From Macrostomum lignano (Eukaryota): a stretch of 64,000 nucleotides of DNA. Made by a program: the position numbers and the translations under genes. Below, one piece after another: positions 18,162 to 43,484 of this stretch; positions within the stretch are counted from its first letter, which is position 1, and every line of letters starts with the position of its first letter. The stretch lies in contig NIVC01001228.1 in assembly GCA_002269645.1 (NCBI GenBank), positions 1 through 64,000 on the forward strand, given 5' to 3'. Under the pieces are notes generated by a model that did no database searches, was not told the DNA's origin, and saw only the letters and a program-made list of their open reading frames with translations.

Positions 18162-18168
18162 TATATAA
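18162..18168 (+). promoter_or_regulatory. TATA box upstream of the Polinton-2 PC4-like gene
   Basis: GGGTATATAAGC about 105 bp upstream of the ATG at 18274. Confidence 0.5.
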
Positions 18169-18273
18169 GCCCCGAAATTGACAAGAAAGAATTCTCAATT
18201 TTTCAAATCCAAAATTTCATCCGAACTTTTCCTCAGCTTTTAACTTTTGTGAGTTTTCAATTGCTAAAGGAAA

Positions 18274-19047
18274 ATGGACATCTGTGAAGGCTATAAGGCA
18301 CAAGTCCAGGAGTTTGAAGGACAAAAATTTATCGCTATTCACAAGTTTTACCGACACGGCAGCACGGCAAGTCTGAAGCCAGGCGTCCCAGGATTCAACC
18401 TGAATGTTCACCAATGGAAGAAATTGAAGGAGGTGAAACGCTCACTTGTGATTTCTGCACGCAACAACGAGCCCAAGGTCGTGAAACTCGGCTTCGATAA
18501 GTTTGTGGAAGTCAAAGGCGGCATCATTTGGCTCAAACGGCTGCCGGAAGATTGCTGCGAGGAGTTTTTGAGACGAAACGCCGTACCACTGACTCCGCCG
18601 CTGTGGCAGAAGCTCTGGAAAATCGCCTCCTGGATCGACGGTCAGCTGGTGGCTCCTTTGAGGAACTCAATGCAGTACGAGCTGGAGTCTGATGAGGAAG
18701 AGGAGGAAGAGGACAAGAAGCTCAAGTTGGAGGCTGACCAGGACACGAAGCCCATAATGGAGACTGATGAGGGCGGAGAGCATGCTGATGACGAGGACGT
18801 TAGCTCGCCCACAAGGCCGCGCATTGTGACTGAGCCTATCACATCCACACCGATAACTTCGGTTGATTCTGATGCTGGACTGCTTCCGCAGCGGGACACC
18901 AACCTTGAGGAAGATCCGGTGTGGTATCAGTTCAGGGCGCATGCAGCGGCTTCGACGGTGAGCAGTAGCAGCAGGAAGCGAAAGCTGCCATTTCAACTTG
19001 GTCGGCAGGACGCGATGAGGCTGCCCAATGTTCGCTTTGATAACTGA
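18274..19047 (+). CDS. PC4/Sub1-like ssDNA-binding protein (two tandem PC4-like repeats plus acidic tail)
   Basis: VQEFEGQKFIAIHKFY...LKPGVPGFNLNVHQWKKLKE resembles PC4 VRDFKGKVLIDIREYW...[20 protein letters not shown]. The second repeat ends in LTPPLWQKLW; EEEEEE tract follows. Confidence 0.8.
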   Translation: MDICEGYKAQVQEFEGQKFIAIHKFYRHGSTASLKPGVPGFNLNVHQWKKLKEVKRSLVISARNNEPKVVKLGFDKFVEVKGGIIWLKRLPEDCCEEFLRRNAVPLTPPLWQKLWKIASWIDGQLVAPLRNSMQYELESDEEEEEEDKKLKLEADQDTKPIMETDEGGEHADDEDVSSPTRPRIVTEPITSTPITSVDSDAGLLPQRDTNLEEDPVWYQFRAHAAASTVSSSSRKRKLPFQLGRQDAMRLPNVRFDN

Positions 19048-19380
19048 ACAGCTAGAATGCTTTGAATGCATTGGACTAACTAAATTACTTTTAGCTTGCA
19101 CATGATTATCCAGCCTATATCTGACGGCACTATGCTGTTTTTTATCTCTGTTTTTTTCTGAAATGCTGGTGTGCGAGTGTTTTAGTGTTCGTTTTTATGG
19201 ATTGTTTGCTTTCGGAAAATACACCGACTGTTACGATGTTAGAGGTTTCAATCTGACAGTAATAAATTAATTTGCCACTCGTTTCTCTATCATTTAATTG
19301 GAATATAAATTTCTACTTAATACTGTACAGCTATACTGTACAGCTAGAGCAGGTGGATAGGCACGTATCTTGATAAACCC

Positions 19381-20461
19381 ATGATGGAGAAAATTTATTT
19401 GAAACCTGAGCAACCGGCTAGTTTTTCTTGTGCCTCAAAGTTGCTGCATGAAGTGATGCAAAGAGGTGATCGAATATCTGCAAAGAGCATTGAGCAGTGG
19501 CTCAGCGAGCAGCCAGTGCACACTCTGCACAAGCCAGCTAGGAGGCGATATCCAAGAGCCCCAATCATAGTGCGCGCAATCGATGATCAGTGGGAACTTG
19601 ACTTAGTGGAAATGATTTCATTCGCAAAGCATAATAAAGGCTACAAATATATTCTCACGTGCATTGACGTGCTCTCAAAATGTGCTTGGGCCAAGGCACT
19701 GAAAAATAAAACTGCCACAGAAGTGAAGTCAGCATTCGAGAGCATACGCGCTCGTACTGAGAAGTTCAAAGCGCCAGCCACGCACAGTTTGCACAGATCA
19801 GGGGAAGGGATTTATCAACTCCACTTTCCGTCAATACTGCATTGACAGAGGGATTCTGGCTTTCCCAACTAACAGCGAGCAGAAGGCAGCTGTCATTGAG
19901 CGATGGAATCGGACTCTGAGAAGTAGAATGTGGCGCTACTTCACCTACAAGAGCACACTGCACTGGCTTGATGTGCTGCCTAAGCTGGTAAAATCTTACA
20001 ACAATACCTATCACAGAAGCATCAAAATGGCACCCACTAGTGTCTGCAAAGAGAATGAATCTGAAGTGTGGATGAACCTGTACGATGGAAAAGCAGTCGA
20101 GACTCTAGAAAAATTAAAGAAGCCTAAGTTCGCTGAAAACCAGTCAGTGAGAATTTCCAATGCTTTACGGCTATTCAAAAAGGGATACAAAGCGAGCTGG
20201 AGTGAGGAAGTGTACACCGTAGTGAGCAGAGCCCCAAAACATTATCCCTACATGTACAAGATTAAAGACATGCGGGGGCAAGAGATTCGAGGACTCTTCC
20301 ATGAGCACGAGCTGCAGGCTGTCCCGGACTCACAGCGGCTGTATGTGATTGAGAAGATCCTGAAAACGGAGAAGCGGAAGGGAAAGATTCGCTATCTGGT
20401 GAAGTGGGCCGGCTACGACTCGACTGGCTGGGTGGATGAAAAAGACTTAAGAAAGGTTTAG
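19381..20461 (+). CDS. Retroviral-like (c-integrase) DDE integrase with C-terminal chromodomain; one frameshifted region near 19770-19850
   Basis: WLSEQPVHTLHKP, WELDLVEM, LTCIDVLSK, KAAVIERWNRTL, YKASWSEEVY, chromodomain YVIEKIL...YLVKWAGY. Confidence 0.93.
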
Positions 20462-20480
20462 CTTTGGCACATCCCTCATC

Positions 20481-21308
20481 TTGAAGTTTATCATTATAAT
20501 GCGAACTATTTTGATTAACAGTGAGCATGCTAAAGGTACTCCTTGTGACTTTAATTTTTACCTGCCTTCACCTATTTACTTGGATCGAAATGTGGACTAT
20601 GAGGCAGGTCTGGCTGAAATCCATCTGCCTGCTGCATGGTTCAAAGTTGACGAGCCTTACTGCTTCACTGTCTCAGATGGAAGAGAGCATGAGGCCCTGG
20701 TTCTTCAACCCGGACGCTTTGCTAGAGTGGAGGAGCTGGTGGAGCGCCTGAATGAGCTGCTGGCCAACTCTGATTCGCTGTTATTTGATGCAATGAGTGA
20801 CAGGGAGTCTGAGATGGAGGCTGATGAGTTCGGCCTGATGGGGCGTAGTGGCAACAGGGAATTTGGTATGAAGTTCGAAATCCGCAACTCACGAACTGTG
20901 GTGCACAACAACACTGCGAGAGCAGAGCTGTTTCTTCCATCTAGTAAAATTCTGCATTGGCTGGGATTTGGAAACCAGGCTGTGAAAATCCAGCCAGGGA
21001 GCCGCGTGTCCGAGCATTGCACTGGCTGCCCGCGCACCAGCTTAATCAATGTGCACTGCAGTATCGTTGAGTCAACTAATTGCAACTGGAGCTCCTTGTT
21101 GAGAACAGTTGGAATGAAAGCCGGCATTGAATGGGGCAACTATCAAACAAAAATATTTAAGAAAACAATATTTTTCCCGATTCAACGAATCAGTCTTCTT
21201 CACAGCATTCGAGTTCAGCTCCGTGACATCTATGGTTGCCCACTGATTGCACAGACTCACAGCCCTGTTCTGCTTACAGTTCAAATTCAGGAGAAACGCA
21301 TTCAATGA
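20481..21308 (+). CDS. Putative minor capsid (penton-like, single jelly-roll) protein
   Basis: F...LPSPIYLD...YEAGLAEIHLP..WF and INVHCSIVES...SLLRTV...IRVQLRD..G pattern typical of the Polinton minor capsid; located between integrase and core/MCP genes. Confidence 0.75.
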   Translation: MKFIIIMRTILINSEHAKGTPCDFNFYLPSPIYLDRNVDYEAGLAEIHLPAAWFKVDEPYCFTVSDGREHEALVLQPGRFARVEELVERLNELLANSDSLLFDAMSDRESEMEADEFGLMGRSGNREFGMKFEIRNSRTVVHNNTARAELFLPSSKILHWLGFGNQAVKIQPGSRVSEHCTGCPRTSLINVHCSIVESTNCNWSSLLRTVGMKAGIEWGNYQTKIFKKTIFFPIQRISLLHSIRVQLRDIYGCPLIAQTHSPVLLTVQIQEKRIQ

Positions 21309-21676
21309 ACTACCAGCAGCTAATCCAGCAATATTCGGGGGTGAGGACAGGACACGAAAAGCCTGCACTCTATGGCTGTGGGAGCTTCCCAGGGATCATG
21401 ACATACCAGCCTCCGCCAGCGGCTATATCATCATCATCAGCCTCGACGCTTAGCAACGTCAGGCGCAAAAGAAATACTGAAGCAAGTCCGAAACGATTGA
21501 AGAAAAAGAAAGGCACCCGAAAGGCAACTGGTGGAAATCGCAGTAAGAGGTCGAGCAAGGCTAGTGGGAAAAAGCTTAAGAATAGGAAGACGAAAGCAAA
21601 GAAGAATAGAGCAGGCGGAGGAAAGCAAAAAGTCAGCAAGAAAACTGTGAAACGCGTGCTCGACTCTCTGTCATAG
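21305..21676 (+). CDS. Basic K/R-rich putative core (pVII/pX-like) protein
   Basis: MNYQQLIQQYSG...LYGCG N-terminus followed by a strongly basic tail; immediately precedes the MCP. Confidence 0.55.
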   Translation: MNYQQLIQQYSGVRTGHEKPALYGCGSFPGIMTYQPPPAAISSSSASTLSNVRRKRNTEASPKRLKKKKGTRKATGGNRSKRSSKASGKKLKNRKTKAKKNRAGGGKQKVSKKTVKRVLDSLS

Positions 21677-21678
21677 AC

Positions 21679-23091
21679 ATGGCTTACGGATTCAATCCCA
21701 GACTTGATTTATTTAAGACGCCCATTCTACAAACCTGCATTGAAAAAGCTACTTATGTTGATATTCACCCAGTTAATTCCATTGTTGCAAACTCTCCCAT
21801 TGAATTTGACTGCCACCAATCTGCCGATGAATACACAGATCTGCTGAATTCTTTTCTTTATATTCGCTGCCGCCTTGTGAGACTGGATGGGGGTTTGCTG
21901 AGGGAGGATGTTCGAGATGGAGATGGCATCATCACCGAGCGCAGAGACAGTGACGTGCACCCAGAAAATTTTGTTCTGTCTACAGTCTTCTCAGATGTAA
22001 TTGTGAGCATTAACCAGCGAGTGGTGTCTGGTGGAGACCAGCTCTATCCCTACCATGCGTACTTCAAAGCACTAATGAGCTCATCCGATGCCCAGCAACT
22101 AAAACTTTACCCTGCTGGCTTCCTGGAGCCGAACTCGGCAGCTGAAGAGCACACGGAGAGCCACAGGGAATCCCGATGGATGGAGTATGCGGGGCCGCTC
22201 TTCAGCGATGTTTTCCAGTGCCCAGTGTTTCTGCTAAGCAATCTGCACTTGCACATCAAACTGGTGCCCAGCGATGGGGCCTTTGCCATCAGAAGCCCGA
22301 ATGCAAACAACGCGGCATACCGAACGGAAATCTCTCACTGCATTCTGCATCTTCGCCGAGTCAAAGTGGTGCCCCACATCAGCCTGGCCCATGAGCAGGG
22401 GCTGACAAACCAAAATGCACTGTATCCCATCGAGCGAACTGAAATGCAGAACTTCATCCTACCCCAGGGTATTCAGTCAAAAAACATTGAAGGATTCACT
22501 CATGGAAAATTGCCGAAGTTCATCATGCTGGCCTTCGTGAGCCACCGAGCATTCAACGGTCATCATCACGCGAGCCCGTTCCAGTTCCAGATCTTCAACC
22601 TTAGCCGATTGGCTCTAAAGAAAGGTGGGGAAACCGTGTGCCACGGCGCCTTCACACCTGAAAACAATTCCTTTGTAAGAGAATACTTGCACTACCTGAA
22701 AAGCTGTCAATCTGCAAGCCACACAAACTCGGTTCCGTGGATCCCCTACCAGCTCTTCTCCAACAACAGCACGGTGTTTGCATTCGATCTCACACCCGAG
22801 GGAGCGGCTCTGTGGTACGGACAGAAGGAGGGCAACCTTTTATCTTTGGTTTATAATTTGTTTCGAGAGATTAAAACAACTGGCTTTTGGCTCCGAAGCA
22901 ATATAAACAGAGTTCAATGTGCTAACTCTAATAAATGCGGAATGTTTTGCATCTATTTTGCTTATCAAAAGTTTCTGTTCAATCGGTCATTTGAGGGGAT
23001 TTTGAAGCATTTGCATGCTAATGAAAAAAATCGTTTGAATGATAGAATCTTACAGAGGTTTGAAGCCAACTTAAGAAAAAGATGTCCGTGA
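21679..23091 (+). CDS. Major capsid (double jelly-roll, hexon-like) protein fused in frame to the C-terminal half of an adenain-like cysteine protease
   Basis: LDLF...Q..I....VDIHP...SPIEF...EYTDL..SFLY and P.FQFQ.FNL...FAFDLTP are Polinton MCP motifs. After ~22845 comes NRVQCANSNKCGMFCIYF, the protease Q..S..CG.FC motif. Confidence 0.85.
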   Translation: MAYGFNPRLDLFKTPILQTCIEKATYVDIHPVNSIVANSPIEFDCHQSADEYTDLLNSFLYIRCRLVRLDGGLLREDVRDGDGIITERRDSDVHPENFVLSTVFSDVIVSINQRVVSGGDQLYPYHAYFKALMSSSDAQQLKLYPAGFLEPNSAAEEHTESHRESRWMEYAGPLFSDVFQCPVFLLSNLHLHIKLVPSDGAFAIRSPNANNAAYRTEISHCILHLRRVKVVPHISLAHEQGLTNQNALYPIERTEMQNFILPQGIQSKNIEGFTHGKLPKFIMLAFVSHRAFNGHHHASPFQFQIFNLSRLALKKGGETVCHGAFTPENNSFVREYLHYLKSCQSASHTNSVPWIPYQLFSNNSTVFAFDLTPEGAALWYGQKEGNLLSLVYNLFREIKTTGFWLRSNINRVQCANSNKCGMFCIYFAYQKFLFNRSFEGILKHLHANEKNRLNDRILQRFEANLRKRCP

Positions 23092-23288
23092 TTTCTAATA
23101 TTTATGCATTAAACATGGGAGAAAAGCAAGCTTGCTACGATATCCGCCTCAGGCAGGGAAGCTGCATGATTGTCTGCGGGCCCACCAATGCAGGAAAAAC
23201 AACCTTTGTCAAACACCTGATCCAGTACAGAGACGTCATGTTTGATGTGAAGCCTGGCAGAGTTCTGTGGTACTATGGGATCTCATAG
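23082..23288 (+). pseudogene. A32/FtsK-like packaging ATPase, N-terminal fragment
   Basis: Walker A MIVCGPTNAGKTTFV; truncated at WYYGIS* and followed by AT-rich DNA. Confidence 0.85.
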
Positions 23289-23687
23289 CAGTAGAAAGAA
23301 AATTATACCTAATCAATCGCACCAAGCATACGAAACCATCACCAATTTATTGAAAGTATGTTATGTTGATTTTAATTTGTTAAATTCAACTGTATAATGT
23401 TTCACCTACTTTTCAAATAATTTTTTTTACCTCGGATACAAAAAATATTGGTTGCCACTACGAGCTATATATAAAAATGTTTTTTAAAATTTTGGAAATG
23501 AAAACTGAAAACTTACAAGCAAGATTCCTAGAAGCGAATACAGAGTTATGAGATGATCAAATCATTAATTAATGCACCTACTTTCAACTTTAAAAAGCTA
23601 GTTGAAATAAATTTTTAGCAATAATTGCAATAAATGGGTAGATTTCTCACTCCACACAAAAAGCAAAAAAGTACAAAAATTGCTTAG

Positions 23688-24596
23688 TCACAGCGACACA
23701 ATTCTAATACGATTTTCGAAAATCGTTACCTCGTACCCAGCCCCGCCGACAGGAGGCAGAAAGAAGGCAACTCCAGCTGGCACAAGTGGAGTTTCGGATT
23801 GAGAAACTGGAATTGTAGAGGCTGCAGCTGGGGCGGCTGGAGCAGCTGGGGCAGCTGGGGCGGCTGGAGCAGCTGGGGCGGCCAGAGCAGCTGGGGCGGC
23901 CAGAGCAGCTGGGGCGGCCAGAGCAGCTGGGGCGGCTGGAGCTGCAGGTGGCACAATTGCATTATGCGACTCATTGTCGCTGCCCTCCTCTTCTAGGATT
24001 TCCATTTCGTGGTCGTCTTCAATTAGATGAAGTTGTTTTCCAGCAATCACCGGAACCGAAGAGACAGGTTGCTGCTGCTGCTGACCAGCGTTGAATTCCC
24101 TGAGGAACTGATCCAGGACATCTTCCTCTATGAAGTTTATGACAGCAGCAGCCTCGACTCCAGCAGCCTCGACTCCAGCAGCCTCGACTCCAGCAGCCTC
24201 GACTCCAGCAGCCTCGACTCCAGCAGCCTCGACTCCAGCAGACAGCTCAACTTCAAATTCTGCAGCTGCTGAAGACCCGCTTGGCCTCATCCTCTTCAAT
24301 GTAGAGTCAATTACTTGATTCAAGTGAGCTGATAGCAGACTCCTGCTGGCTCCCTTTTTCTGCTGGCTCTTTTTTTCTCTCTCTTTGCTCTTCTTGATGG
24401 CGCGGATTACTTTCCAGCGGTTACTTTCTTGCTTTTTCTTGTCATCGCTGACGATCCTGTGTCCTCGATGATTTGCTGGAATTTTTCCCTCCTGCAGAGC
24501 TTCGACGGTGCCGCACTGGTCGCATGCCAACCAGCATGAGACCAGACAGTTCTCATTCTCGTGGTGTCTTGGGGACACGCCTCCAAGCAGGCACAC
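23688..24596 (-). CDS. Hypothetical low-complexity protein inside the right end of Polinton-2
   Basis: 302-codon open frame (GTG start) with a basic segment, (GVEAA)n, an acidic segment and (AAP)n repeats. No recognised domain. Confidence 0.4.
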   Translation of the reverse strand: MCLLGGVSPRHHENENCLVSCWLACDQCGTVEALQEGKIPANHRGHRIVSDDKKKQESNRWKVIRAIKKSKEREKKSQQKKGASRSLLSAHLNQVIDSTLKRMRPSGSSAAAEFEVELSAGVEAAGVEAAGVEAAGVEAAGVEAAGVEAAAVINFIEEDVLDQFLREFNAGQQQQQPVSSVPVIAGKQLHLIEDDHEMEILEEEGSDNESHNAIVPPAAPAAPAALAAPAALAAPAALAAPAAPAAPAAPAAPAAPAAASTIPVSQSETPLVPAGVAFFLPPVGGAGYEVTIFENRIRIVSL

Positions 24597-24949
24597 TTCG
24601 CAGCTTATACAGACCTCATTTCATTTTGAAAGAGAAAGAGTTGTTTTTTAGAAGTAGTAAGGTTTTTAAAAATCCTTTTATACAATTTGTTTTTGTCTAT
24701 TTGTTTATTTGTACTTGCGTGGCTGCTTATATAGTAATTTGTACATGCATGCCCTCTCCTTATCATATCGTATATGAACATCCAGCCATGCTCAGGTAAT
24801 AATTACTTTACCGTTATAGAGGCCACCGGCTGTAATTAGTGTATTCCCCCCCGTCCCTTATCCAGGTAAGCAACACCAGCCGTCCTCTGTGCAGTTGTAA
24901 AACTTTATAACCTTAGCCTAACACAGAGCACAGAGATTGGCCACCCCTC

Positions 24950-25492
24950 TTATCTCTGCAATGTTTAGCCGTTCCCAATGCACAGAGATAGGATCCTCTC
25001 CGCAGTGTATTTTTCCTATATCCTTTTTGCCGCCTATCTCGCCAGTGCAAATGCGGCAGTATCATGAATCGCCTCTATCTCCGCAGTGCTTAGCCGTCCC
25101 CAATGCACAGAGATAGAGCTCATATCTCTGCAGTGCTTAGCCGTCCCCAATGCACAGAGATAGAGCTCATATCTCTGCAGTGCTTAGCCGTCCCCAATGC
25201 ACAGAGATAGAGCTCATATCTCTGCAGTGCTTAGCCGTCCCCAATGCACGAGATAGAGCTCATATCTCTGCAGTGCTTAGCCGTCCCCAATGCACAGAGA
25301 TAGAGCTCATATCTCTGCAGTGCTTAGCCGTCCCCAATGCACGAGATAGAGCTCATATCTCTGCAGTGCTTAGCCGTCCCCAATGCACAGAGATAGGGCT
25401 CATATCTCCGCAGTGTATTTTTCCCTATACATTTGCATTGCCGCCTATCTCGCCAGTGCTAGTGCGGCAGTATCATAATTCGCCCTACTACT
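24950..25492 (-). repeat. Right TIR of Polinton-2: seven 47-bp units plus a degenerate inner copy of the terminal ~130 bp
   Basis: Units at 25084, 25131, 25178, 25225, 25271, 25318, 25364; 25411-25492 is the near-perfect inverse of 17640-17721; 24950-25083 is a diverged repeat of the terminus. Confidence 0.9.
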
Positions 25493-26226
25493 TTTGTCCT
25501 ATTGCTGATCTCAAAAACTGTTATAGGCCTCTTGGCTCTCTGGGGAATTATACTACTGCTGTCTAATTTATTATAAGGGAGTCGGGGTTACTGGTTTTTG
25601 TTTTATTACTAACACAAGAATTATTTTGGGAATTTCTTAGGATTTGGGGAGAAATACTCAATTCCTACTACTAACAGGAGTAAGCCTTAGGTTGCTCCTG
25701 GTGGCGTGATGTGTCCGAGCGGCAAGACACTATATCTCTATTCAGTCCGAGTATTTAGAGGGGGGAAAGTAAGGGCTTCGCGATGGATCAGAGTTGCCTG
25801 GGAAACTGGCGCACTAATGGGGAATTTCTAATAACTAATAGGGTATGCTAGCATGAGTAGGCAGAGCGTCTAATATCGCATTAGGTAAGAAGGCAGTACG
25901 CCTAATAGATATGGGAGATAGAGAAGGGTAGGGATGTTTGAGCAAGGATCAGACTGTAAGTCTGAGGGAATAAGGCTGTACACCTGTGCAGACAGACTGT
26001 CTACAAAAGGGGAAGGAATGAAAGGGAAGCGCCTGTTCTGTTGGGAGGAAGGGGGGGGGGGTTGAGCGATTGCTCGGGCGGGACTGTACGTCCTGGGGAG
26101 AACGGGGAAGAGAAGTGCTGGGCACTCAAGGCTCCGCGGGAGAGGGAAGGCGGAACGCCTTTAAATGACTAAGACCAATTCCGATCTATTTATAGAACAA
26201 TGTTTAACCGAAGTCTAATTTTAGCA

Positions 26227-26605
26227 CACTGCGGTGCAAAAAGGTCCAAAAAAAGGTCCACACAAGGTCCAAATTGTAAGGTCCGCAGCGTCGATATTTT
26301 TGGACCTCTGAAGGTCCATTTTTAAAAAAGGTCCAATTTTTGAGGTCCATTTTTGAGGTCCAAATTGTTAGAATAAGGTCCAAATTGCAAGGTCCGCAGC
26401 GTCGATATTTTTGGACCTCTGAAGGTCCATTTTTAAAAAAGGTCCAATTTTTGAGGTCCGCTTTTTAAGGTCCAAATTGTTAGAAAAATTTCCAAATTGA
26501 AGGGCCCAAAGCGTCCATTTTTGGACCTCTGAAAGACCATTTCTCTCTAAAAAATATGCATTTTTAGATCCAAATTAAAAGGTCTATTTTAGAGGGGTCC
26601 GAGCT
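26227..26605 (+). repeat. Subterminal repeat array of the EnSpm element
   Basis: Many GGTCC(A)/GGACC motifs and three ~120-bp blocks (GGTCCAAATTG...GATATTTTTGGACCTCTGAAGGTCC). Confidence 0.8.
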
Positions 26606-27331
26606 TTAAGGATTGCAATCATTGCATGCCCTTTTGGAGGGTCGATTTCATGAATTAATAAAGGAAGTCACTGAAGGCCAAGAATGTTTTCTGTAATATT
26701 AACAACTCATCACTTGCAAGTAATGAGTTGCATATAAAATATAATGTACACATTATAAACGTCTTTACACCAGCAACAGTAAAGTAAAAAGCTCTAGCAT
26801 GCATACATGAAAAGCAGAGGCATACAGTTTCCATTTTGATGTGCAAAAAAGTTAACAAAACACACCTTGTATAGCATAGAAGACTGGACAAAAGTCCACA
26901 GAAAGCCACATTATAGAACACACAAAAAGTAAAAGTGCACGAACACCCCGGCTGCAATTTGACAACATTCCAACAAGGATTTAAACAGACTTTATAATGT
27001 GGCAAATGGATACCCATTGAATTAAATGTTTGTTTTGTGCACCCTTCATTTTTATTATCCCACAGACAGAAAAACTGCAAAGTGCAAAAATGCATTCTCA
27101 TTTCTAAAAATGCAAATCCAACATTTGGAACGCAAAATGGACTAAATAAACTATGATATTGTGTCTGCAAAAATACACCATTTCCATAATTCCATTATAC
27201 CATTTCCATTATTCCATTATCTATCCTGTAGGAATATCTTATATCTGGGGATAAAACTACTCGAGCATAAGAAAGTCAGATAGCTCAACTAATTGGTTTT
27301 TGAAAATGAAGGCAATGCAATGAAACAGCAA

Positions 27332-33265: not shown

Positions 33266-33653
33266 CATTATTACTTATCCGTCGAAATAGCAAATTATAT
33301 GACAAACCTTAAAATGAAGAGGTAAACAATCTAGATTGAATGCAAAGGAGAAAAATATTACTAGGGATAGTGATACAGTACGAGGAAGGAAGGGCAGAAG
33401 CAGTTCACAGTGATAGGTTCTATGGCTAAAACCCCAAAGCAGGTGACAGAGTGTTCCAAACACCTCTCTCAAGTAACGGGTTTTGGCGATGTTAAAGCAG
33501 CACTATAATTTTACATAGCAGTAGTCTATGGTCAGCCCTGCTGACCATACGGGTTTTCGCTTAATGTAGAGAAAATGCGCGGCATGGAACTGGTTAAGGG
33601 TGGTAGAATATGCATACATAAAAAATTGTGCAGTTGTGACCTTTGAGTCAGCC

Positions 33654-33674
33654 GTATCTCAAAACTTTCAGTAT
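33654..33674 (-). repeat. Probable 5' TIR remnant of the mariner at 7868
   Basis: GTATCTCAAAACTTTCAGTAT is the exact inverse of 7876-7896 (21 bp); the outer 8 nt do not match. Confidence 0.6.
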
Positions 33675-34579
33675 CGCATTTCATTTGTACTTAGCAGTCA
33701 GTACAACCATATGTGCGCTTGATGAGATTTTAAACAGAAGAACTGCGTGGAGACCAGGGCATCCCACTATCCCACTGTTCCATTATCAATCGGGGGAAGG
33801 AAAACTGAGGGTGCCATTTCCTCTATGACAAACAAGACACGCACCCCTTAGTGTGGGGAACACCCGCATGCGCCGTCTAGTTATATTACTTGATCTGTGG
33901 CATCGCCAGTGAGCGGGATGAGCTGTACACAGTCGCCACTCTCAAGCGCGCTCTCTCATTCTGGGAGGACAAACGCGCCTGGATCTCCGCCAACGAGAGT
34001 CTACCCTACGGCCACTACCGTCTGCAGTCCCGAAAGCGCCCCTGCCCGTCTGATTGATTTTAATTGGACAATTTTCACAACATTAAAATTTTGCAACACT
34101 TTTCCTCAATTTTTTGTAAATCTGTAAATAATGTAAATTTTAACGTTTTATGTGATTTAAACAGTGTATGCATGTTTAATACAGCCATAGTATATTTTGA
34201 ATAATATACATATGCTTTACTCTATGACATTCAATACGCTGCAGTAGAGAAAATGCTCTTTCACATTATTATTTTTGTCATAATGTCCAGGTTAAAAGTT
34301 AAAAGTTAGTCGAGTCCAGGTTAAAATCCCCATTGAAATACATGTTTTGTGAACAAGTATGTAAGTTTTCGTCCACAGTGATTTAAAGCACGCAATATGG
34401 CGTGAATTTTTCGACAACATGCGTCAATTTTCATGCACAAGTTCGAGTGAAAATCCCTATTGAAATACATGTATTTTGTTTTCAAGCCAGGTCTTTGGCA
34501 TAAGAAAATGATAGGTACTATAAATTTGGAAAAATGATAAAAAGGCGATTTCCAACCTGCCAAGTATTTATCTTGACTG

Positions 34580-35060
34580 CAGGAGGCCGGGCAGCTATGG
34601 AGACTATCAGGCGTTAAAACAAGAGTTGCACAAACAGCAAGGGCGCAAGTTTAGTGTAGGGCAGGTATGGATTTTTAATTCTACGATATACTTCTGGACC
34701 AAAGATTTTCTAAAAAATTCCATCCTAGATTTGCCTCAGATTTATCCACTAGCTAGCTATTTCCAGTTTTCATATTACTTACAATTAAAGGTAATGACTT
34801 GGCTCAAAGACCAAGATGTCTACACACTGCATAGAGATAAACGCAAAAACTTTCGTTTAGCACCAATTGTGGTGCGGGGCATGGATGACCCGTGGGAACT
34901 GGACCTGGTTGAAATGCTTCCATTCCGTTGAAATGCAATGGCGGCATGCGATACTTTCTATGCTGTATTGATATGCTCAGCAAAATGGCCTAGGCTCAGC
35001 CAGTGCGCCGCAAAACAGCCGGAGAGGTTGCGGCAGAATTCAATGCAATTCTGAAAAATC
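34580..35060 (+). pseudogene. Polinton-1 integrase N-terminal remnant containing a 126-nt GT-AG insertion
   Basis: GSYGDY.., [34665-34790], VMTWLKDQDVYTLH, PIVVRGMDDPWELDLVEM, CIDMLSK, KTAGEVAAEFNAIL; homologous to 19381-19845. Confidence 0.85.
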
Positions 35061-35367
35061 TTTTTTTCAAAGGCAGAGAGTGGCGCACAATGAGCATAAA
35101 TTGCACCTACATTGTGCTGTTCAACAACCCCAGAGACACCTTGGGCAGCCTTAAGTCAGCTGTAAATAGCATCAGTTTCGCTATCGCGTGCGCGTGAACT
35201 TATGTGTTTTATGTTCAGTGTACAATCGCCAGTGTACATTGCAAAATCAAATATGAAATATCTCGCTTGGCTTTAGCCACTTCGTGTTTTCTCGGACTAA
35301 CTCAAACCTGCCCTTTGCTTAGTTTACATTGGTGGCAGCGGTCTCTAAATCAAGCCGGCTTACCCAT

Positions 35368-36214
35368 GGCGCACGCAAATGCACTTTTGCCACCCAAGTT
35401 TTCGGGTGCTGACGACACCGACATCAATATGTGGCTGCAAATTTTTGAAGATTTTGCAGCAGATTCAGTGTGGAACGATGCTAAAATGGCTTCAAAAATC
35501 AAGCTTCTTCTGTGTGGCGAAGCTTTGGTGTTCGTCTGGGACCTGTCAGAGGACGAGAAGAAAAGCTTCAAGAGTATAAAAACCAAACTCGTCCAGTTCT
35601 ACAGCAGCAAGGAAAACTCCTACCGCGCCATGTCGGAGTTTGAGAGCCGAAAACGACGTCAGGGAGAATCATTGAGGGAGCTGTGCTTGGCTCTCAAGCT
35701 TCTGTATCGGAAGGCACGCCCTGAACACGCTCAAACGGTGAGAGACTGCGAAGTGCGACACCGAATGCTGGCACTGCTGCCTAGAGAGATTCGCGAAGCC
35801 TTACTGAAAGAGCCAACGAAGAGCCATTGCGACGAAGTCAGCCCTGAACAGTTGGCGGACCGAGCCACGATTCTGGAGAGCATAGGCAGCAAAGGAGCCT
35901 CTGCAAGCGTTGCAGTGACATCGGTTAGTAATCAAGTGTCTGATCGGCTGGAGCAGATGCAGGAGCAGCTGGTAGACCTGGCCGCGACAGTCGCCACGAT
36001 CAGCAGCCGGGGAAGTCAATGTGGAAGAGGAAGAGGAGCCGGACGCAAAGGCGGCAGCCGAGGAAGATGTTTCAATTGTGCTCAGCCCGGCCATTTTGCT
36101 GCTCAGTGCCCCAGCAGGAAGGCCGCACCAACCACGCCGTCCGTGTGCAGCCGCTGCTCAGGCAAAGGACACCGAGCCGAGGTCTGCCCGACACCAGCTT
36201 CGGGAAACTTCTGA
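35368..36214 (+). CDS. gag: Gypsy Gag with two CCHC zinc knuckles
   Basis: PPKFSG...WLQIFE; CFNCAQPGHFAAQC and CSRCSGKGHRAEVC; open frame from MAHANALL. Confidence 0.9.
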
Positions 36215-36220
36215 GGACTG

Positions 36221-38230
36221 GTGACCGCGGGCCATCACCAGCCCTGCCTAGCAAGGCCCAAACCGCTTCCATCTTCCTTCTTCCTCCCTGTCCAGCTGGG
36301 GTCAACCAGGATCCCCATCTTCCCTGACAGGAGCCCCACGCCAGCCTGCCGAGTGATGCCCATCGCGGTGATTGCCAGAGTTGCCAGCACCGTGACCGTC
36401 CCTGCCCGCAGCCGTGTCATAATCCCGGTCAAGGTGCCATCGTCCGTCGAGCAGGGTCTGTTCGAGCCCAGCTCTGATTTCGTCGACAAGACGGGCCTGC
36501 TGCCGAACAGGGCGCTAGTGGTGTCCAGCGCTGATGGCAACCTGCCGGTGGGCGTCTGCAACCTGAGCGCCGACCCGGTAGTGCTCTACCAAAACCAGAC
36601 AATCGGGAACTTCGACTCTGCCGAACCTCATGGATCTGGCGAAGAACCTGATGAAGAGGTTGGCTTCAAAATCAACCCTGAGCTAAGTATGTCGCAACGC
36701 AAGCTAATCGAAGTCCTTCTCAGCAAGCACTAGAAAGCATTCGCCAGTAACGAGTTCGATCTGGGAACAACACACCTGCTGCAGCACGAGATCAACCTGG
36801 AGCCCGGCAGTCGCCCTATCAAGCGCAGGCAGCGAACAATCCCGCTGAACTTCCGCCAGCAAGTGGATAACAAAATCAGTGAGATGCTGCGTCACGGAAT
36901 CATCGAGCCATCGTGCAGTCCATGGGCGAGCAACCTGCTCGTTGTTCGCAAGAAAAACAACGAGATCCGAATCTGCACCGACTGGAGAAGCCTCAACTCG
37001 TGCACCGTGAAGGACGCCTACCCGCTGCCTCCCCTGTCGGTTGCTCTAGACGTACTTACGGAATGCAGTTGGTTCAGCACACTCGATCTCCGCCAAGGGT
37101 TCCTGCAGGTCGAGCTACGTGAACAGGATCGAGAGAAGACCGCATTTTACTCAACGCAGGGCCTGATGCAGTACAGGAAGCTTGGATTCGGCCTCTGTAA
37201 CGCTCCATCAACCTTTCAGCGGCTGATGGATCTAACAATGGCTGGTCTGAACTGGACCGAAGTTCTCACGTACATGGACGATCTGATTTTGTTCAGTCCG
37301 ACGTTTGAAAAACACGCCCAAACCTTGGAACAGGTCCTCGAAAGACTGCAGTCAGCGGGCCTTAAGCTTAACAAGCGCAAGAGCTGCTTCTGCTTCCAAG
37401 AAGTAGAGTACCTGAGCCAAAAATCTCTGCCGAGGGTATTCAGCCAACTCAGGAGAAGATCAGCGCCATCCAATCCATCCCAACGCCTGATTGTGCCGAA
37501 GACGTTCGCCGGCTCGTCGGTATGCTGGGCTTCTATCGGCGATTCGTCCCTGATATGACGTGACTATAATATTGATATTATTTTAATTGCATATGCAGTT
37601 TGACGCGTTTTGTTTTACCTATGGACTAAATGAAGCTGCAAAACAGGCTTGGGTGAAAAGCCCGCTGTGAGAATGTGAAATAAAGAGAAATAAGAGCAAG
37701 ACTAAGAACCTTGGAGCCGCGGAAACGTCTGCTAGGATATCAGCACTAATAATTAATGCCTTAAGTATATTGAAGACTTTAAGTAACCTGAAAACATAAC
37801 AGTCCCAAACTTTGCCAGCATCGCTAATCCGCTTCATCAGGTGACTCAGAAGGGACGGCAGTTTCGGTGGACATCAGAGTGCGAAGTGGCGCTACAGAAG
37901 CTGAAGTCAGCGCTCTCGGCGCCTCCACTGCTGAAGCTGCCGGACTTCTCCAAAGAATTCCGTCTGTGCTGTGACAGTAGCGGCGTGGCCATCGCGGGTA
38001 TCCTCAGCCAGCTGCACGAAGGCGTTGAATGTCCCGTAGCATACGCGTCGCGAGTCCTGAACAAGTCAGAGCGGAATTACTCGACAACGCACCGAGAGCT
38101 TCTGGCAATGGTGTGGGCAATGAAGCACTTCCGAAACTACTTGGCGTCAGCTGGTGAAATTCTGGTCTTCAGCGACCACAAGCCGTTGCTAGGGGTTACT
38201 GATCACCTACCTGCAAGAGATCAACTTCAC
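36221..38230 (+). pseudogene. pol: Gypsy pol remnant (post-protease region, RT, RNase H); no protease active site or integrase seen
   Basis: IIEPSCSPWAS, LDLRQGFLQV, FGLCNAPSTFQR, YMDD, CDSSGVAIAGILSQ, YSTTHRELLA, SDHKPL. Confidence 0.92.
37551..37801. mobile_element. Solo LTR (251 bp) inserted in the gypsy RT/RNase H linker
   Basis: TGATATG...CATAACA termini; 5-bp TSD GTCCC (37546-50, 37802-06); removal restores RFVPNFASIA. Confidence 0.85.
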
Positions 38231-39929
38231 GCTGCTCTTCAGACCCGGTCACGAGAAGGTGGTGGCAGATGCACTAAGCCGAGCGGCGGCGACTCGGCTG
38301 CCACCTGTCTGGTCGGACGACGCTATCAGTACAGCGCATACGCTTGCGTTGCCCGCCACTGACCCGCATGCAGCAGAGGACGGCCGGCCGCCCAGTCCCG
38401 TTGATCCGCGGCAGACCTGGACGGATCTGCTGGACGAGCCGACGGCTGCTGGGCCTCGTCGCTCTGAGAGGACTCGGAGACCGCCTGATTTTTTGTTGCG
38501 CAGTTCCAATCAAACAAACATGCTGCCGCGTTCGAATTCTAAGTTAAATCGTCACTTTTTTTAAGCCATTGTTTTTTTAAATCCTCAATTTAGGGAGGGA
38601 GTGATGTAAATAGCATCAGTTTCGCTCTCGCGTGCGCGTGAACTTATGTGTTTTATGCTCAGTGTACAATCGCCAGTGTACATTGCAAAATCAAATATAA
38701 AATATCTCGCTTGGCTTTAGCCACTTCGTGTTTTCTCGGACTAGCTCAAACCTGCCTTTTGCTTAGTTTACACAGCAATGCTTTCCCAAACGGTGCACTC
38801 TGCTAGTAAAACTGATAGATCCATTGGTGCGAGATGGAGATCAGCGCTATCTGCTGCTTGATTTTCACCCGCTTCACCACATGAACTGCGCCTGAGAGCC
38901 AGTTTTCTCCCCGATGAGGCCCCACAGCGCATTTATCTATAAGAATGGCTCAGTCTCTGCACCGAGTTAAACATTAATAAACATATTTCACTAATACGAG
39001 CGTAACTGTCTTTTGTGAGGGAACTATATCCTTGCATCGCTGTATACTTACCTATGCAAATAAAAGCACCATTTGCTTTTTGGTTAAGTGTATTATCAAC
39101 TTACTAGCAGGAAAAGTTTGCTGTGAAGATAGCTTGAAGCGGAGACTCAGGCGATATCGAAATACTCTCCGGCTTGTTGCACAAAGCAAGTGTGAAAGAG
39201 GCTCGGCGCAATCTCTCACACCCGCATATCATTCGTTGTCTTCCTCTGGTTCTCACCTGTATAAAATAAAAAGAGGTACAAGAAAATGATACTGGTGGCC
39301 CGGTTGCAGTATGAGGCACTTGTGAATCAGAGGGGCATGGAGACAATCTGTGAACCCGAGCTAGAGGCGGAAAAACAGTTGCGCAAGATTAGGGACGATC
39401 GTTGTGTGCAGCAACTACAGGCAAGTGCGACCCAAGAACAGTCTCCAGTAATTCCCAGAGAACCGCAATGGAAGAAAGTGTTATGTCTGACGGATTCAGA
39501 AATGGCATCATCGCCTGCAGGCATTGATTCACTTCATAACTGTTGCATATTCTCTAATGACTTGTTATATTCTCAGACATGACTTGTTATGTCTGACGGA
39601 TTCAGAAATGGCATCATCGCCTGCAGGCATTGATTAGCTTCATAACTGTTGCATATTCTCTAACTATTGCGTATATGACGCACGTTATTTTTCATTTGTG
39701 TTATGCATTACATTGCTCATGTCTGTGTGCTTGACTTGAGTGCTCTTAATGAGCCGCGGCTAAAAGAGAAAGAAAGAACAAGTCGCGGCTGCAGGATAAA
39801 ATATAAAGTACGCCGGTAACTCGCTTCAATTAAACATCACGGACTTCGACTTTAATGTCGTTGATCTAGAAGAGTCTACCAAGACTGGAATTATATATAG
39901 TCTTAGAAAAAGCAGAAGACATAACAATA

Positions 39930-40200
39930 ACTGTAAAGTGCAAATCGATTAGCATATATAATACATATTAAGTTTCTGTCAATGGTAAACCGCTGTACAA
40001 CTCAAATATCGTGGACCTGCTGAATTTCATAGTTAAAGATACGTACTCTTGGTATCTTCAGCCACCGAATGAGATTAATGCGTTTGTTACGTGTCTTCAA
40101 GAAAACCACGTGCCTCTGTCTGCAGTTGGTCTGAACACTACAAAACTGCTTGTGATAAAAAGGCAATTAGATAAATATATTGCATGCACGATAAGCAATT
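39930..40200 (+). pseudogene. Fragment of a conserved Polinton hypothetical protein
   Basis: NGKPLYNSNIVDLL...P.....F...L....VPLSAVG resembles the recurrent Polinton G..I.GSNIVDL...NVP motif (from memory of the family). Confidence 0.5.
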
Positions 40201-41995
40201 ATTTAGGCCCTAGACAAAACTATTTTTGGAGCGTTCAGAGATTTTAAAGCTATTGGCCCTAATTGCCTATCGCCGGTCGGCGAGTCCTACCAATCTTTCT
40301 CCAATAGTCACAGTACGGTACAAGAAAAGAAGGAACACAGGTGAACACGAACCGAATAGATTTAGAGAGTGATAATCCTATATGAATAAAGCTGATAATG
40401 GCTAGACGATTTAATTTGATTATTCAAGCTACAGGATTCAAGCAATTCGCGGCGCAGATAATTAGACTGATGATAACGAATAATAACGATTAATAATAAT
40501 GATTATATTACGCACTGACAAGCGGATCTCAGCTTGAAGAAGAAGAAGGAGGCACCGAACACAGGACCACGGAGAAAGACTCCTAACCCCTGGCCTAAGC
40601 CAGAACCTACACTCAAACGAGAGCCCTGCCGAATCGACCGTTCAACGGAGTACCGACTAAATTCTATCGGCACTGCCCTTCAGTGTGACACTGAGGCCCT
40701 CGGGGTCGAGGCCGCGTACTTGATCAGATCCGACAGTCTCTATCTAAACCGCGCTTGATAGCGACGACGTCAGACAAGGATGCCGAATCGTTACGCTACA
40801 AGACTGAAGCGGTCGGGCGGGGAACAAAACTATGGACCGGGGTGACGAATTCAGAACGCCTCAAAGCGCGAATCAAAGGGAAACAGGCCACCGGCCGGGA
40901 AGCTGGACAAAACCAAGAACCGGGGAAAGAAGGGGGTGAGATCCGATTGCCAAACACACTTTCATTTATAGTCAGAGTCACAACTCCTCAAAACCCCCCT
41001 CAAGCCGGGTGGTGGTCGTCTGGCCGGCCGCTTGCTTAAGCCGAATTGCACTGTGCCCGCGGCGCCGGGTAGAATTGGAACTTGCCACGTGCCAGGGTCC
41101 AGGCCGGTTCTGATTGGCTGGCCGCGCAAAGCTGGGGTTCGCAGACAAAAACTCAACCCTCCGCTGAGTCACAAACGGCGTCTGACTTCTAGCCTGTTTA
41201 CGCAAAATTGATTCTAACTAACAAGGAAAAAGTACACCAAAAACGTATGACTAAACTAAAGCAAAATAATAATTCAATAACAATAATGCAAAACCTAACT
41301 AATAGAATACAAGGCTATCGCAAAAGATGCTCACACTACATGCTGGAAAAGCCTCGGGAAGAAAATTGTAGTCCGAAAAAGCCTTGGCTGCAAGACTATA
41401 AGAAGACGCAGTCTCAGGAAAGTGGATCAAGTGGCCAAGATGATTGTCATTGATTTTGAATGATTTTCGCACCTCTACAAAACAGAGGACTTTGGGGTCG
41501 TACTATAAAGCTGTCGTAGCGTAATTTCGATCGTACGTCGGAACTTTTACACTGCGAAGATAAGAGCTAAGAACGATCTTATCTTACGATGGCTTTATAG
41601 AACGGGCCCTTTGTGATTAAGGAAATTGCATGGGTTGACTTTGCATGTGTTCAAACGACGGTTCATTACTATTGCTACCGGCCGCCGCGCACCTTTGAGC
41701 TCTTTGATAGAGGACAACGACGAACGAACCTGCTACTGGCTTACCAATGAGCCTCCGGTCTAGACTGGGACTGAAGTGGGTTCCGAACCTACTCTTGTCT
41801 CTGGAGCGATATCTCTCACTTGCACAAGGCCTGATACTCAGTAAAGGGGATGTCAAGTGCCAGTTCCTATCGCGCCTGCTGTTCCAGCCTGTCCACGACC
41901 TAGCATAGATGGCCTTTCCGAGTGCCTCAAAGTACGTGCTACCCTGCGCCCTGGCCAAGGTGGCGCTGTACGCTGATTGGCTACAAAAAAAGGTC

Positions 41996-42002
41996 TATAA
42001 AA
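41996..42002 (+). promoter_or_regulatory. Canonical TATAAAA box with upstream reverse CCAAT box for the TBP-like gene
   Basis: CTGATTGGCT (~41973) then GGTCTATAAAAG, 47 nt before the ATG at 42049. Confidence 0.65.
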
Positions 42003-42048
42003 GTAGCGATCTGCAGCAGGCACTGACATTACTCTCGATTGTCTAAAG

Positions 42049-42618
42049 ATGGTCGCAACAACAGGAGCCGATCTGGCGACCCGGGTGGCTCTGCCACAAC
42101 TAGCGAATTTCCTGACTCTTTATCTGCCTCAGTATCACACAATCCGCCATCGCCTGGTTCATCCTCGAACACTGGCAGTGGTGATGAAGAGCGAGCAGCA
42201 TCAAGTAACCGCGCTGGTGTATCCGACTGGACAAGTGTCTGTCTGTGGAGCCAAAAGCATGGAGGAGGCTCTCGCAAAGACGGAGAAGATTGTGAGGCTG
42301 TGTGCGGATTTCTTGCGATTGACCAGTCTGCCCCAGATTCGCATCAAGACTATTACCTCTGTGACGGCCTTTTTCGCGGGTCGCCATCCACTCCGGTTGA
42401 GGGAAGTCAAGTCTAAGTGGGGTACCTACAAGCCGAAAATGTTAAATGGGCTTGTGCTCAAGTTAACTGTCTCTGTAAAGTTGATTTTTGTTTCATTCAT
42501 ATCGCTGTATATAGCTGGTGCTTGCAGCGTGGTTGAGGCTCAGACTGCAGCTGATACCCTCTTCCGCATTTTGTATGCAGACCAAGCATCCGAGCCTACT
42601 TTGCCGGACTCTGACTGA
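42049..42618 (+). CDS. TBP: Divergent TATA-box-binding protein (TBP)-like protein encoded within Polinton-1
   Basis: Two-repeat TBP core: [33 protein letters not shown] vs TBP [41 protein letters not shown] vs [21 protein letters not shown] vs YEPELFPGLIYRM; LIFVS..YIAGA vs LIFVSGKVVLTGA. 189 aa with no stops. Confidence 0.82.
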   Translation: [189 protein letters not shown]

Positions 42619-43033
42619 GCTCGTTAACGGCATAACAGCAGTAGTGAGCCCTGTATCATTTAATATTACTATAAAATGCTTTTCTGTAAAATACACTTTT
42701 TGAGTTTTTAAAATAATACAATACAATGTTTTCGCGTGGTAAGATGAATGAAGAACAAAAGGGGCAGCATTAAGGCTCGTCGCATGTATTTACAAAACAG
42801 TATTATCGCCCCGAATCAAAGCATAAAAACACATGGGCAGTATTATGGCCCGAAACAACTATTTACAGTGAGAGAAAGTCAAAATAGCGTTTTTGGAACT
42901 TGGTCTGGACTGCCTGTCATGCCTCTCAATGGTCATCCCACTCTGCTGGCTGCGTCTCTGGCCACATCACTAGCTGGTCCATCGAGAGTTTTGACGCCCA
43001 CTCCGCGCACTCTTCGGGCTCCGATGGGTAGTT

Positions 43034-43453
43034 TCCGAGCTACCACGGGTTGGCTGGTCCTTCGAGTTCTTCCAATATTCATTGCCTGTGTTGCCACAGC
43101 TGTCGCCATTGCTCAGTTGGTAGCGACAGGGCGTGTCTCAAGTGCAGTACGGGCTCGAGCACTGTTGGAAGGCGCCAGAGTGAGATTGCACCATCTTTGA
43201 CCACCACTTGCCTGTTGCCACCCAGAAGCCATTGCGCATCGAGTTTCCTGTCAGCGAACTCCTCCAAGCGCTTGGTCAAGCTGGCCAGGTGTCGGAATTG
43301 ATGGATGGTGAGCTCCATGCCGGGCAGACCTGGCCGATGATCCTCGTCGTCAGACTTAAACCACTTTCTAATACTGATGGTTTGTGTGTCCGGCACCAGG
43401 TTGATGCGATAACCATGTAGTAGTTCTTTAAACGCTATCAGAAAAAAATTCAT
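43034..43453 (-). CDS. Tandem PC4-like protein of Polinton-1, probably with a premature TGA near its C-terminus (43079-43081)
   Basis: ISIRKWF...RPGLPGMELTIHQFRHL (PC4 repeat 1); LLGGNRQVVVKDGAISLWRLP...LPTEQWRQLW aligns to KLGFDKFVEVKGGIIWLKRLP...LTPPLWQKLW of 18274-19047. The frame continues *ILEELEGPANPW after the stop. Confidence 0.75.
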
Positions 43454-43484
43454 TTAAAAAATTGCTTGAAGCTTAGCGAGCGCA

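What the first reader, a model, noticed from the sequence alone, without database searches (positions are those of the whole stretch)
18274..43453. Both Polintons place a tandem-PC4 protein immediately inside a TIR
Seen: ORFs 18274-19047 (+, Polinton-2) and 43034-43453 (-, Polinton-1) each contain a PC4/Sub1-like repeat followed by a second degenerate repeat, and the second repeats align with each other (KLGFDKFVEVKGGIIWLKRLP vs LLGGNRQVVVKDGAISLWRLP). Each is the first gene inside a TIR and has a TATA motif upstream. Established: PC4 binds ssDNA as a homodimer and is a Pol II coactivator. Inference: single-chain pseudo-dimeric SSB/coactivators; together with the TBP-like gene they could form a TBP+PC4 early-transcription or replication module in this Polinton lineage. 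The Polinton-1 copy has a likely premature TGA.
Basis: partly seen in the sequence, partly recalled or inferred. Interest (0 to 1): 0.72.

Follow-up and report, generated by a model that had tools for sequence, protein, structure and literature searches.

The report
Tandem PC4 gene at Polinton ends
Two virus-like transposon families of a flatworm each carry, as the first gene inside one end, a two-repeat protein with the fold of a single-stranded-DNA binder; the gene type was already labelled in related viruses, but these elements also encode an altered TATA-binding protein and mark most inner genes with a non-standard TAAGAA box, which hints at their own late-gene switch.

Summary
Observation confirmed. 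Both ORFs are homologous (28% over 115 aa, E 1e-10). Both families model as one chain with two PC4-type repeats: repeat 1 overlays human PC4 (rmsd 1.1 A), the whole domain overlays Pur-alpha I-II (Z 10.8-11.2). Each is the first gene inside a terminus, behind a TATA box, with the polymerase at the opposite end. Both repeats are under purifying selection. The gene type is not new: the top viral fold match is adintovirus 'MOSUB', drawn beside an ITR in Starrett et al. 2021. Most likely job: the element's early ssDNA-binding protein for protein-primed replication (0.5); a coactivator partnered with the TBP-like protein is the rival (0.25). Unexpected: full-length copies of both families encode the TBP-like protein, with shared changes on its DNA-binding face, and most internal genes carry a sense-strand TAAGAA box (7-8 sense, 0 antisense, about 1 expected per element) that is absent upstream of the PC4 gene (0 of 69). 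This suggests two promoter classes, as in herpesvirus late transcription. No binding, start site or expression was shown. The Polinton-1 window copy has four in-frame stops, not one.

The parts
2864..44042 (.). Polinton P1 (outer element), degraded and interrupted by other transposons and by P2
   Evidence: AGTAGT termini, target duplication CGTACG, TIR 70% over 571 nt; pPolB, integrase, ATPase pieces
17640..25492 (.). Polinton P2 (inner element), internally deleted copy of a multi-copy family
   Evidence: AGTAGT termini, duplication TTTGTC, TIR 98.6% over 293 nt; gene pieces 84-98% identical to full-length sisters
18274..19047 (+). P2 tandem-PC4 (MOSUB-like) gene: repeat 1 aa 1-64, repeat 2 aa 65-130, acidic linker (net charge -18 in aa 131-200), conserved tail motifs
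18162..18169 (+). canonical TATA box (TATATAAG), 112 nt before the ATG
   Evidence: a TATA-like box lies within 160 nt in 37 of 40 P2-type loci
42866..43453 (-). P1 tandem-PC4 gene, broken by four in-frame stops; small helical tail domain in sister copies
43496..43505 (-). TATA box inside the right TIR of P1 (CCCTTTATAA)
3403..3412 (+). same TATA box in the left TIR of P1, ahead of the polymerase gene
   Evidence: also ahead of the polymerase N-terminus in L108 and L109
3508..5976 (+). frameshifted pPolB pieces of P1, the terminal gene opposite the tandem-PC4 gene
   Evidence: Pfam DNA_pol_B_2; tblastn to sister pPolB
42049..42618 (+). TBP-like gene of P1 (two TBP repeats), with CTATAAAAG at 41995
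   Evidence: Pfam TBP E 5.4e-14; alignment with host TBP
24726..24733 (-). TATATAAG at the other end of P2, pointing inward
20446..20453 (+). TAAGAA box before the P2 putative minor capsid gene; further boxes at 21156 (basic protein), 21575 (major capsid), 23070 (ATPase)
34499..34506 (+). TAAGAA box before the P1 integrase; further boxes at 38938 and 41397 (before the exonuclease-like gene)
19381..23285 (+). P2 internal block: integrase-chromodomain (frameshifted), putative minor capsid, basic protein, putative major capsid fused by deletion to a protease piece, start of ATPase
   Evidence: Pfam rve, Chromo, Peptidase_C5; capsid labels are inferred from size and position, no Pfam hit

Best explanation
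The gene encodes the element's own single-stranded-DNA-binding protein. Two PC4 repeats in one chain fold into the shape that host PC4 reaches only as a homodimer, so it needs no partner and need not pair with host PC4 (inferred). It is transcribed early by host machinery from a canonical TATA box at the element end, as is the gene at the opposite (polymerase) end. Its main job is most likely to coat and unwind the displaced strand during protein-primed, strand-displacement replication by pPolB. Shown: homology, fold model, position, TATA box, purifying selection. Inferred: ssDNA binding, early timing, role in replication.
For: Fold: repeat 1 to human PC4 rmsd 1.1 A over 64 aa; whole domain to Pur-alpha I-II Z 10.8, rmsd 3.9, 117 aa and Z 11.2, rmsd 3.8, 117 aa. 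PC4 DNA-contact residues named in PMC4350104, mapped through onto 22 aligned proteins: repeat 1 keeps the R86 (21 of 22), W89-as-Tyr/Phe (22 of 22), K97 (18 of 22), G99 (22 of 22) equivalents; repeat 2 keeps basic residues at the R70 (22 of 22) and K101 (21 of 22) equivalents plus one more (22 of 22). Selection: between P2 subfamilies dN is 0.06-0.37 (repeat 1) and 0.14-0.47 (repeat 2) with dS above 1.2 or saturated in all 21 pairs. Layout: PC4x2 and pPolB lie at opposite ends and point inward in both families although the central block is inverted relative to them; in P1 one TIR-embedded TATA box serves both. Protein-primed replication relies on dedicated SSBs (PRD1 P12, PMC11886824; Bam35 SSB), the phage T5 PC4 homolog is tied to DNA replication, and no other SSB candidate was recognised among the element ORFs scanned.
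Against: No binding or expression data. Neither repeat has the full PC4 site: repeat 1 replaces the R100/K101 loop by a PGxPG motif and keeps an aromatic at the F77 position in only 10 of 22 rows; repeat 2 has no aromatic at the W89 position in 20 of 22 rows. The tails differ completely between P1 and P2 and the P2 tail carries conserved short motifs unrelated to an SSB core. A third subfamily persists without Polinton core genes within 10 kb. A shared fold shows no function, and I could not inspect the model coordinates for the helix swap.
Confidence: 0.5

Rival explanations
1. It is mainly a transcription cofactor: made early, it helps the element's TBP-like protein open or occupy the TAAGAA promoters of the internal (capsid, integrase, ATPase) genes.
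For: PC4x2 and TBP-like co-occur in both families (10 of 15 PC4-bearing loci). Internal genes carry a distinct box. PC4 is a known Pol II cofactor. Acidic linker and conserved tail motifs could be interaction sites.
Against: MOSUB appears in adintovirus maps with no TBP label in the supplement text I could read; subfamily P3 has no TBP-like gene nearby; P1 and P2 tails share nothing while their TBP-like DNA-binding faces are conserved.
Confidence: 0.25
2. The fold is a nucleic-acid anchor for a tail that modulates the host (cell-cycle or checkpoint kinases, repair of free element ends), like the immediate-early genes at adenovirus ends.
For: Across 11 P2-type proteins the tail keeps TSTP-like, DPxWY, RKR-like and LRRQxA-like motifs in an otherwise unalignable linker. 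That these resemble CDK sites, a nuclear/cyclin-docking signal and a CaMK-family pseudosubstrate is recalled, not tested.
Against: P1 and P3 have a different, helical tail; some homologs of 120-150 aa have no tail, though they may be partial.
Confidence: 0.15
3. It is a captured host PC4 whose second half is a decayed remnant with only a structural role or none.
For: Repeat 2 has no Pfam hit, weak profile similarity and lacks the stacking aromatics.
Against: Repeat 2 is under purifying selection similar to repeat 1, keeps near-invariant basic residues across 22 divergent proteins, and the two-repeat form recurs in lancelet and insect adintoviruses.
Confidence: 0.1

Closest known systems
MOSUB gene of adintoviruses (Branchiostoma lancelet A0A5H3CIS2; Bos-associated insect A0A5H3CT48; Starrett et al. 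2021, PMC8502044)
   Same: Top viral fold match for both models (E 1.6e-5, TM 0.75 over the two-repeat domain; E 2.4e-4); similar length (about 200 aa); in Suppl. Fig. S2 the label order reads ITR, PolB, integrase ... MAEL, MOSUB, ITR, i.e. terminal and opposite PolB (read from the PDF's text layout).
   Different: Only 15-17% identity. The main text never mentions MOSUB or PC4, so no two-repeat structure or function is discussed there; no TBP label in that supplement's text.
PC4/Sub1 (PF02229), type II PC4-like homodimer
   Same: Repeat 1 matches by sequence and structure and keeps most DNA-contact residues.
   Different: Two unequal repeats in one chain; PG[RK]KG loop replaced by PGxPG; regulatory region is C-terminal, whereas the host PC4 has its acidic/basic region before the domain.
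Type I PC4-like domains (Pur-alpha I-II, Whirly, MRP1/2; review PMC7549692)
   Same: Same two-repeat intramolecular architecture; best whole-domain structural matches.
   Different: 8-12% identity; the element protein descends from PC4 proper. Cellular two- and four-repeat PC4 proteins also exist in algae (102 of 150 hits have two or more canonical loops) but keep canonical repeats.
SSBs of protein-primed replicons (PRD1 P12, Bam35 ORF2)
   Same: Proposed role: protect the displaced strand; disordered C-terminal tail.
   Different: OB-like fold, not PC4.
Beta/gamma-herpesvirus TBP mimic (KSHV ORF24) and TATTWAA late promoters (PMC12529657)
   Same: Virus-encoded TBP fold plus a non-canonical TATA variant at structural genes, canonical promoters at early genes.
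   Different: ORF24 is large, keeps four Phe and lacks the TFIIB-binding Glu residues; the Polinton protein is a bare 190-aa TBP core that keeps those Glu residues and alters the N-terminal lobe. Its link to the TAAGAA box is only inferred.

Membership tests
PC4/Sub1 (PF02229) | Pfam PC4 match above the curated cut-off | tested here: met
   P2 28.9 bits (cut-off 25); P1 24.5, just under; repeat 1 only
PC4/Sub1 (PF02229) | single repeat that homodimerises | tested here: not met
   two repeats in one chain in both models; oligomeric state itself not testable
PC4/Sub1 (PF02229) | ssDNA-contact residues R70, F77, R86, W89, R100, K101 | tested here: inconclusive
   split between the repeats, neither complete
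Type I PC4-like domain | four strands + helix, linker, four strands + helix in one chain | tested here: met
   DSSP of both models; Z 10.8 and 11.2 to Pur-alpha I-II over 117 aa
Type I PC4-like domain | helix swap between repeats | tested here: inconclusive
   implied by the full-length overlay; coordinates not available to me
Type I PC4-like domain | binds single-stranded nucleic acid | not testable with these tools
   needs a binding assay
Adintovirus MOSUB | structural match over both repeats | tested here: met
Adintovirus MOSUB | terminal position next to an ITR, opposite PolB | tested here: met
Adintovirus MOSUB | common descent rather than separate capture of host PC4 | not tested
Polinton/Maverick | TIRs with 6-bp target duplication, pPolB, retroviral-type integrase, ATPase, protease | tested here: met
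   the window's P2 copy lacks pPolB by deletion
Polinton/Maverick | double and single jelly-roll capsid proteins | not tested
   ORFs of fitting size and position gave no Pfam hit and were not folded
TBP | two TBP repeats | tested here: met
   Pfam TBP, two stretches, E 7.9e-25 and 6.9e-21
TBP | four intercalating Phe and two Asn | tested here: not met
   N-lobe Phe pair is Pro and Tyr in 7 of 7 rows; second Asn is Thr in 7 of 7; C-lobe Phe pair kept in 6 of 7
Viral late-promoter TBP mimic (herpes type) | binds the variant box and is required for late transcription | not testable with these tools
   only the box and the altered protein are seen

The most novel reading that the evidence does not exclude
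These flatworm Polintons run their own two-stage transcription programme with only two small proteins: host TBP reads canonical TATA boxes at the two ends (tandem-PC4 gene and polymerase side), and an element-encoded, altered-specificity TBP then reads a TAAGAA variant box ahead of the integrase, capsid and packaging genes, with the single-chain PC4 serving replication and possibly coupling it to late promoter opening. That would be a minimal, independent parallel to herpesvirus late transcription inside an animal transposon, and direct evidence for an early/late viral cascade in Polintons.
Probability: 0.4. Interest if true: 0.78.

Novelty: new variant of a known kind. Interest (0 to 1): 0.55.

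Why it matters
How Polintons protect the displaced strand during replication and how they time capsid-gene expression are open; the papers I searched name no SSB or late-promoter system for animal Polintons. This work gives a function-level reading to the undescribed MOSUB gene (single-chain PC4 pseudo-dimer, early, terminal) and, through the TAAGAA box and the altered TBP, a cheap testable model of early/late control in a laboratory flatworm that holds many near-identical copies.

Tried and rejected
Complex prediction of PC4x2 with the TBP-like protein was not available, so no verdict. Expression: no RNA holder listed on record; contigs of three runs guessed as RNA and one unlabelled run covered the gene but also the DNA upstream of the TATA box and nearly all of the stretch, so they say nothing on transcription. 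Searches for related loci in viral and metagenome contigs found none, so the TAAGAA box and TBP co-occurrence could not be tested outside this genome. Word-indexed homolog searches gave only 3 and 5 proteins. Pfam did not name the exonuclease-like ORF; equating it with MAEL rests on its position and a recalled motif. Earlier findings of the scan: nothing returned. Rejected: the TAAGAA box as a poly(A) signal of the upstream gene (it mostly lies inside that gene's coding sequence); as an amino-acid constraint (kept in two different frames at the end of gene X, and it uses the Leu codon TTA, 9% of Leu codons); tandem PC4 as unique to Polintons. Not excluded: a baculovirus-like TAAG late motif read by a helper virus, or a trans-splicing signal. 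Literature: 'polinton'+'PC4' gave 1 unrelated listing, 'MOSUB' 0 occurrences in the 40 listed of 239 papers, term finds in six Polinton papers gave no PC4, and the promoter search listing showed no animal-Polinton TAAG paper among 20 listed of 43. Supplements of bioRxiv preprints and slides in the Starrett supplement could not be read and may bear on this.
Full report
Setting. The window holds two nested Polinton-type elements. P1 spans 2864-44042 and P2 17640-25492; each has AGTAGT termini, TIRs and a 6-bp target duplication. P1 is degraded and filled with other transposons; P2 is a deleted copy that lacks most of the ATPase, the exonuclease-like gene, the TBP-like gene and pPolB. A P2-type TBP-like protein is 99% identical to a record named Macrostomum lignano, so the host is that flatworm or very near it.

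Observation. The two ORFs are homologous across both halves (28% over 115 aa, E 1e-10). Pfam sees PC4 only in the first half and nothing in the second halves alone. Repeat 2 is weak by profile-profile comparison (probability 8%), but its profile scores host PC4 above all 2000 shuffles. AlphaFold models of the P2 domain (pLDDT 87) and of an open P1-family copy (pLDDT 80, about 90 in the domain) both give two four-strand-plus-helix repeats. Repeat 1 overlays human PC4 at rmsd 1.1 A over 64 aa; the whole domain overlays Pur-alpha I-II best (Z 10.8 and 11.2, 117 aa), then MRP1/2 and Whirly; residues 63-125 of the second model also match the single PUR repeat III (Z 4.0, rmsd 2.5, 57 aa). That is the type I PC4-like architecture of PMC7549692 (parts 1-3 of 6 read).

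Family. The own-genome searches scored 150 of 283 and 150 of 231 candidates and found several subfamilies, most with open frames. Of 70 loci examined, one had no N-terminal match and was dropped; of the other 69, 31 of 40 P2-type and 25 of 29 P1-type have a terminus motif within the 1.5 kb or less that was held upstream, and 37 of 40 and 28 of 29 have a TATA-like box within 160 nt. Many of these copies are near-identical, so they are not independent. Among 15 PC4-bearing 10-kb loci, 9 show the gene as first Polinton gene after the terminus, 3 have no strict terminus motif but no gene upstream, 1 is rearranged and 2 are degraded; 10 of 15 contain a TBP-like gene. Gene order is TIR > PC4x2 > integrase > capsid block > ATPase > X > exonuclease-like > TBP-like < pPolB < (small ORF) TIR in P2, and TIR > PC4x2 >< TBP-like < exonuclease-like < ... 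< integrase < pPolB < TIR in P1. So PC4x2 and pPolB stay at opposite ends pointing inward. In P1 the TATA box is part of the TIR and precedes both; in P2 TATATAAG points inward at both ends. Both repeats are under purifying selection between subfamilies; within close pairs dN/dS is lower-powered and one pair has dN above dS in repeat 1. A third tandem subfamily (P3) has no Polinton core gene within about 10 kb at five contigs.

What is known. The best viral fold match of both models is MOSUB of the lancelet adintovirus, with the insect adintovirus MOSUB lower down. In Starrett et al. 2021 (PMC8502044; term finds, section 3.2 and part 1 of the supplement seen) MOSUB appears only as a map label, last before an ITR and opposite PolB. 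The same paper's figure legends list TBP-like genes in the section on viruses of non-animal eukaryotes. The ESM Atlas lists PC4 clusters of Preplasmiviricota viruses at scores under 0.9, a lead only. Profile search gave 490 hits; of the best 150, 102 have two or more canonical PC4 loops (the few named ones are algal) and 15 have the element-type PGxPG loop only. So neither a terminal PC4 gene nor tandem PC4 is new; the unequal two-repeat form in Polintons was not described in what I searched.

Mechanism of PC4x2. DNA-contact residues of human PC4 (PMC4350104, passages) are divided between the repeats: repeat 1 keeps R86, W89, K97 and G99 equivalents and loses R100/K101; repeat 2 keeps R70- and K101-like basics and loses the stacking aromatics. 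I read this as an asymmetric ssDNA binder with one near-canonical face. Its position and promoter pair it with the polymerase, protein-primed replicons need an SSB (PMC11886824 and 10.1101/2021.03.25.437074, passages), and the T5 homolog acts in replication. Hence SSB 0.5, TBP-linked coactivator 0.25, host modulator through the tail 0.15, remnant 0.1. None of this was shown biochemically.

Side finding. While checking TATA boxes I saw a recurring TAAGAA upstream of internal genes. The pattern [ACT][AT]TAAGAA occurs 8, 7, 8, 8, 7 and 7 times on the sense strand and 0 times on the antisense strand of the internal block in six elements, against 0.7-1.2 expected by first-order resampling. Spacing to the ATG is similar in the two families: 35-60 nt for most genes, 107-110 for the major capsid, 140-149 for the basic protein. 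It is absent upstream of PC4x2 (0 of 69), occurs 7 and 4 times on the two strands of 46 kb of non-Polinton window DNA, survives in two reading frames and uses a rare Leu codon. Against it: the pattern was found post hoc and widened to fit P1; the six elements are related; the protease gene and P2 gene X lack their own box, the major capsid lacks it in two P2 subfamilies, the P1 TBP-like gene has a canonical TATAAAAG; and one P3 tandem array has about four matches per 3.4-kb unit that are not tied to ORFs. The TBP-like proteins of P1 and P2 are 37% identical yet share their DNA-facing strands, keep the C-lobe Phe pair and TFIIB-binding Glu pair, and change the N-lobe Phe pair and one Asn. From recall, the N-lobe reads the 3' half of the TATA box, where this box has its G; that link is not tested. 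The nearest precedent is the herpesvirus TBP mimic and TATTWAA (PMC12529657, passages).

Verdict. The TBP+PC4 early module is unproven. The stronger lead is the two-promoter pattern with an altered TBP. Interest 0.55; new variant of a known kind.

Noticed in passing
window 20446, 21156, 21575, 23070, 34499, 38938, 41397; L071, L073, L077, L081, L082, L089: Sense-strand TAAGAA box ahead of most internal Polinton genes, absent ahead of the terminal tandem-PC4 gene; candidate late promoter.
   Followed up: partly
window 42049-42618; L071:8521-9093: TBP-like gene with shared non-canonical DNA-binding residues in both families; no close relatives outside this lineage among the 120 best hits except three Logan proteins.
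   Followed up: partly
L071:8001-9093; L082:2314-3406; window 41440-42618: The exonuclease-like ORF overlaps the TBP-like ORF by 330-390 nt in another frame in both families; homology between families covers only its first 175 aa or so.
   Followed up: partly
L092-L094, L096-L104: Third tandem-PC4 subfamily without Polinton core genes within 10 kb, in repeat-rich DNA, once as a 3.4-kb tandem array; shares the helical tail of the P1 type. Possibly a non-autonomous carrier or a host-captured gene.
   Followed up: partly
window 18840-19047: P2 tail keeps short motifs (TSTP-like, DPxWY, RKR-like, LRRQxA-like) across 11 proteins while the linker is unalignable; resemblance to kinase and docking motifs is recalled only.
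   Followed up: no
window 11839-17109: Non-LTR retrotransposon with endonuclease, RT pieces and RNase H, on the minus strand just left of P2.
   Followed up: no
window 27332-32054: Element with a CIDE-N domain ORF and two AT-rich ORFs (weak Transposase_21 hit) inserted in P1.
   Followed up: no
window 35198-38760 and 10477-11890: Gypsy-like retroelement (gag zinc knuckle, RT) and a piggyBac-like transposase remnant inside P1.
   Followed up: no
window 8331-8691 and 61144-61504: 361-nt inverted repeat pair, 98% alike, 52 kb apart; probably two copies of a short dispersed repeat.
   Followed up: no
P0008-P0152: Cellular proteins with two or four canonical PC4 repeats are common; the few named ones come from green algae and a dinoflagellate.
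   Followed up: partly
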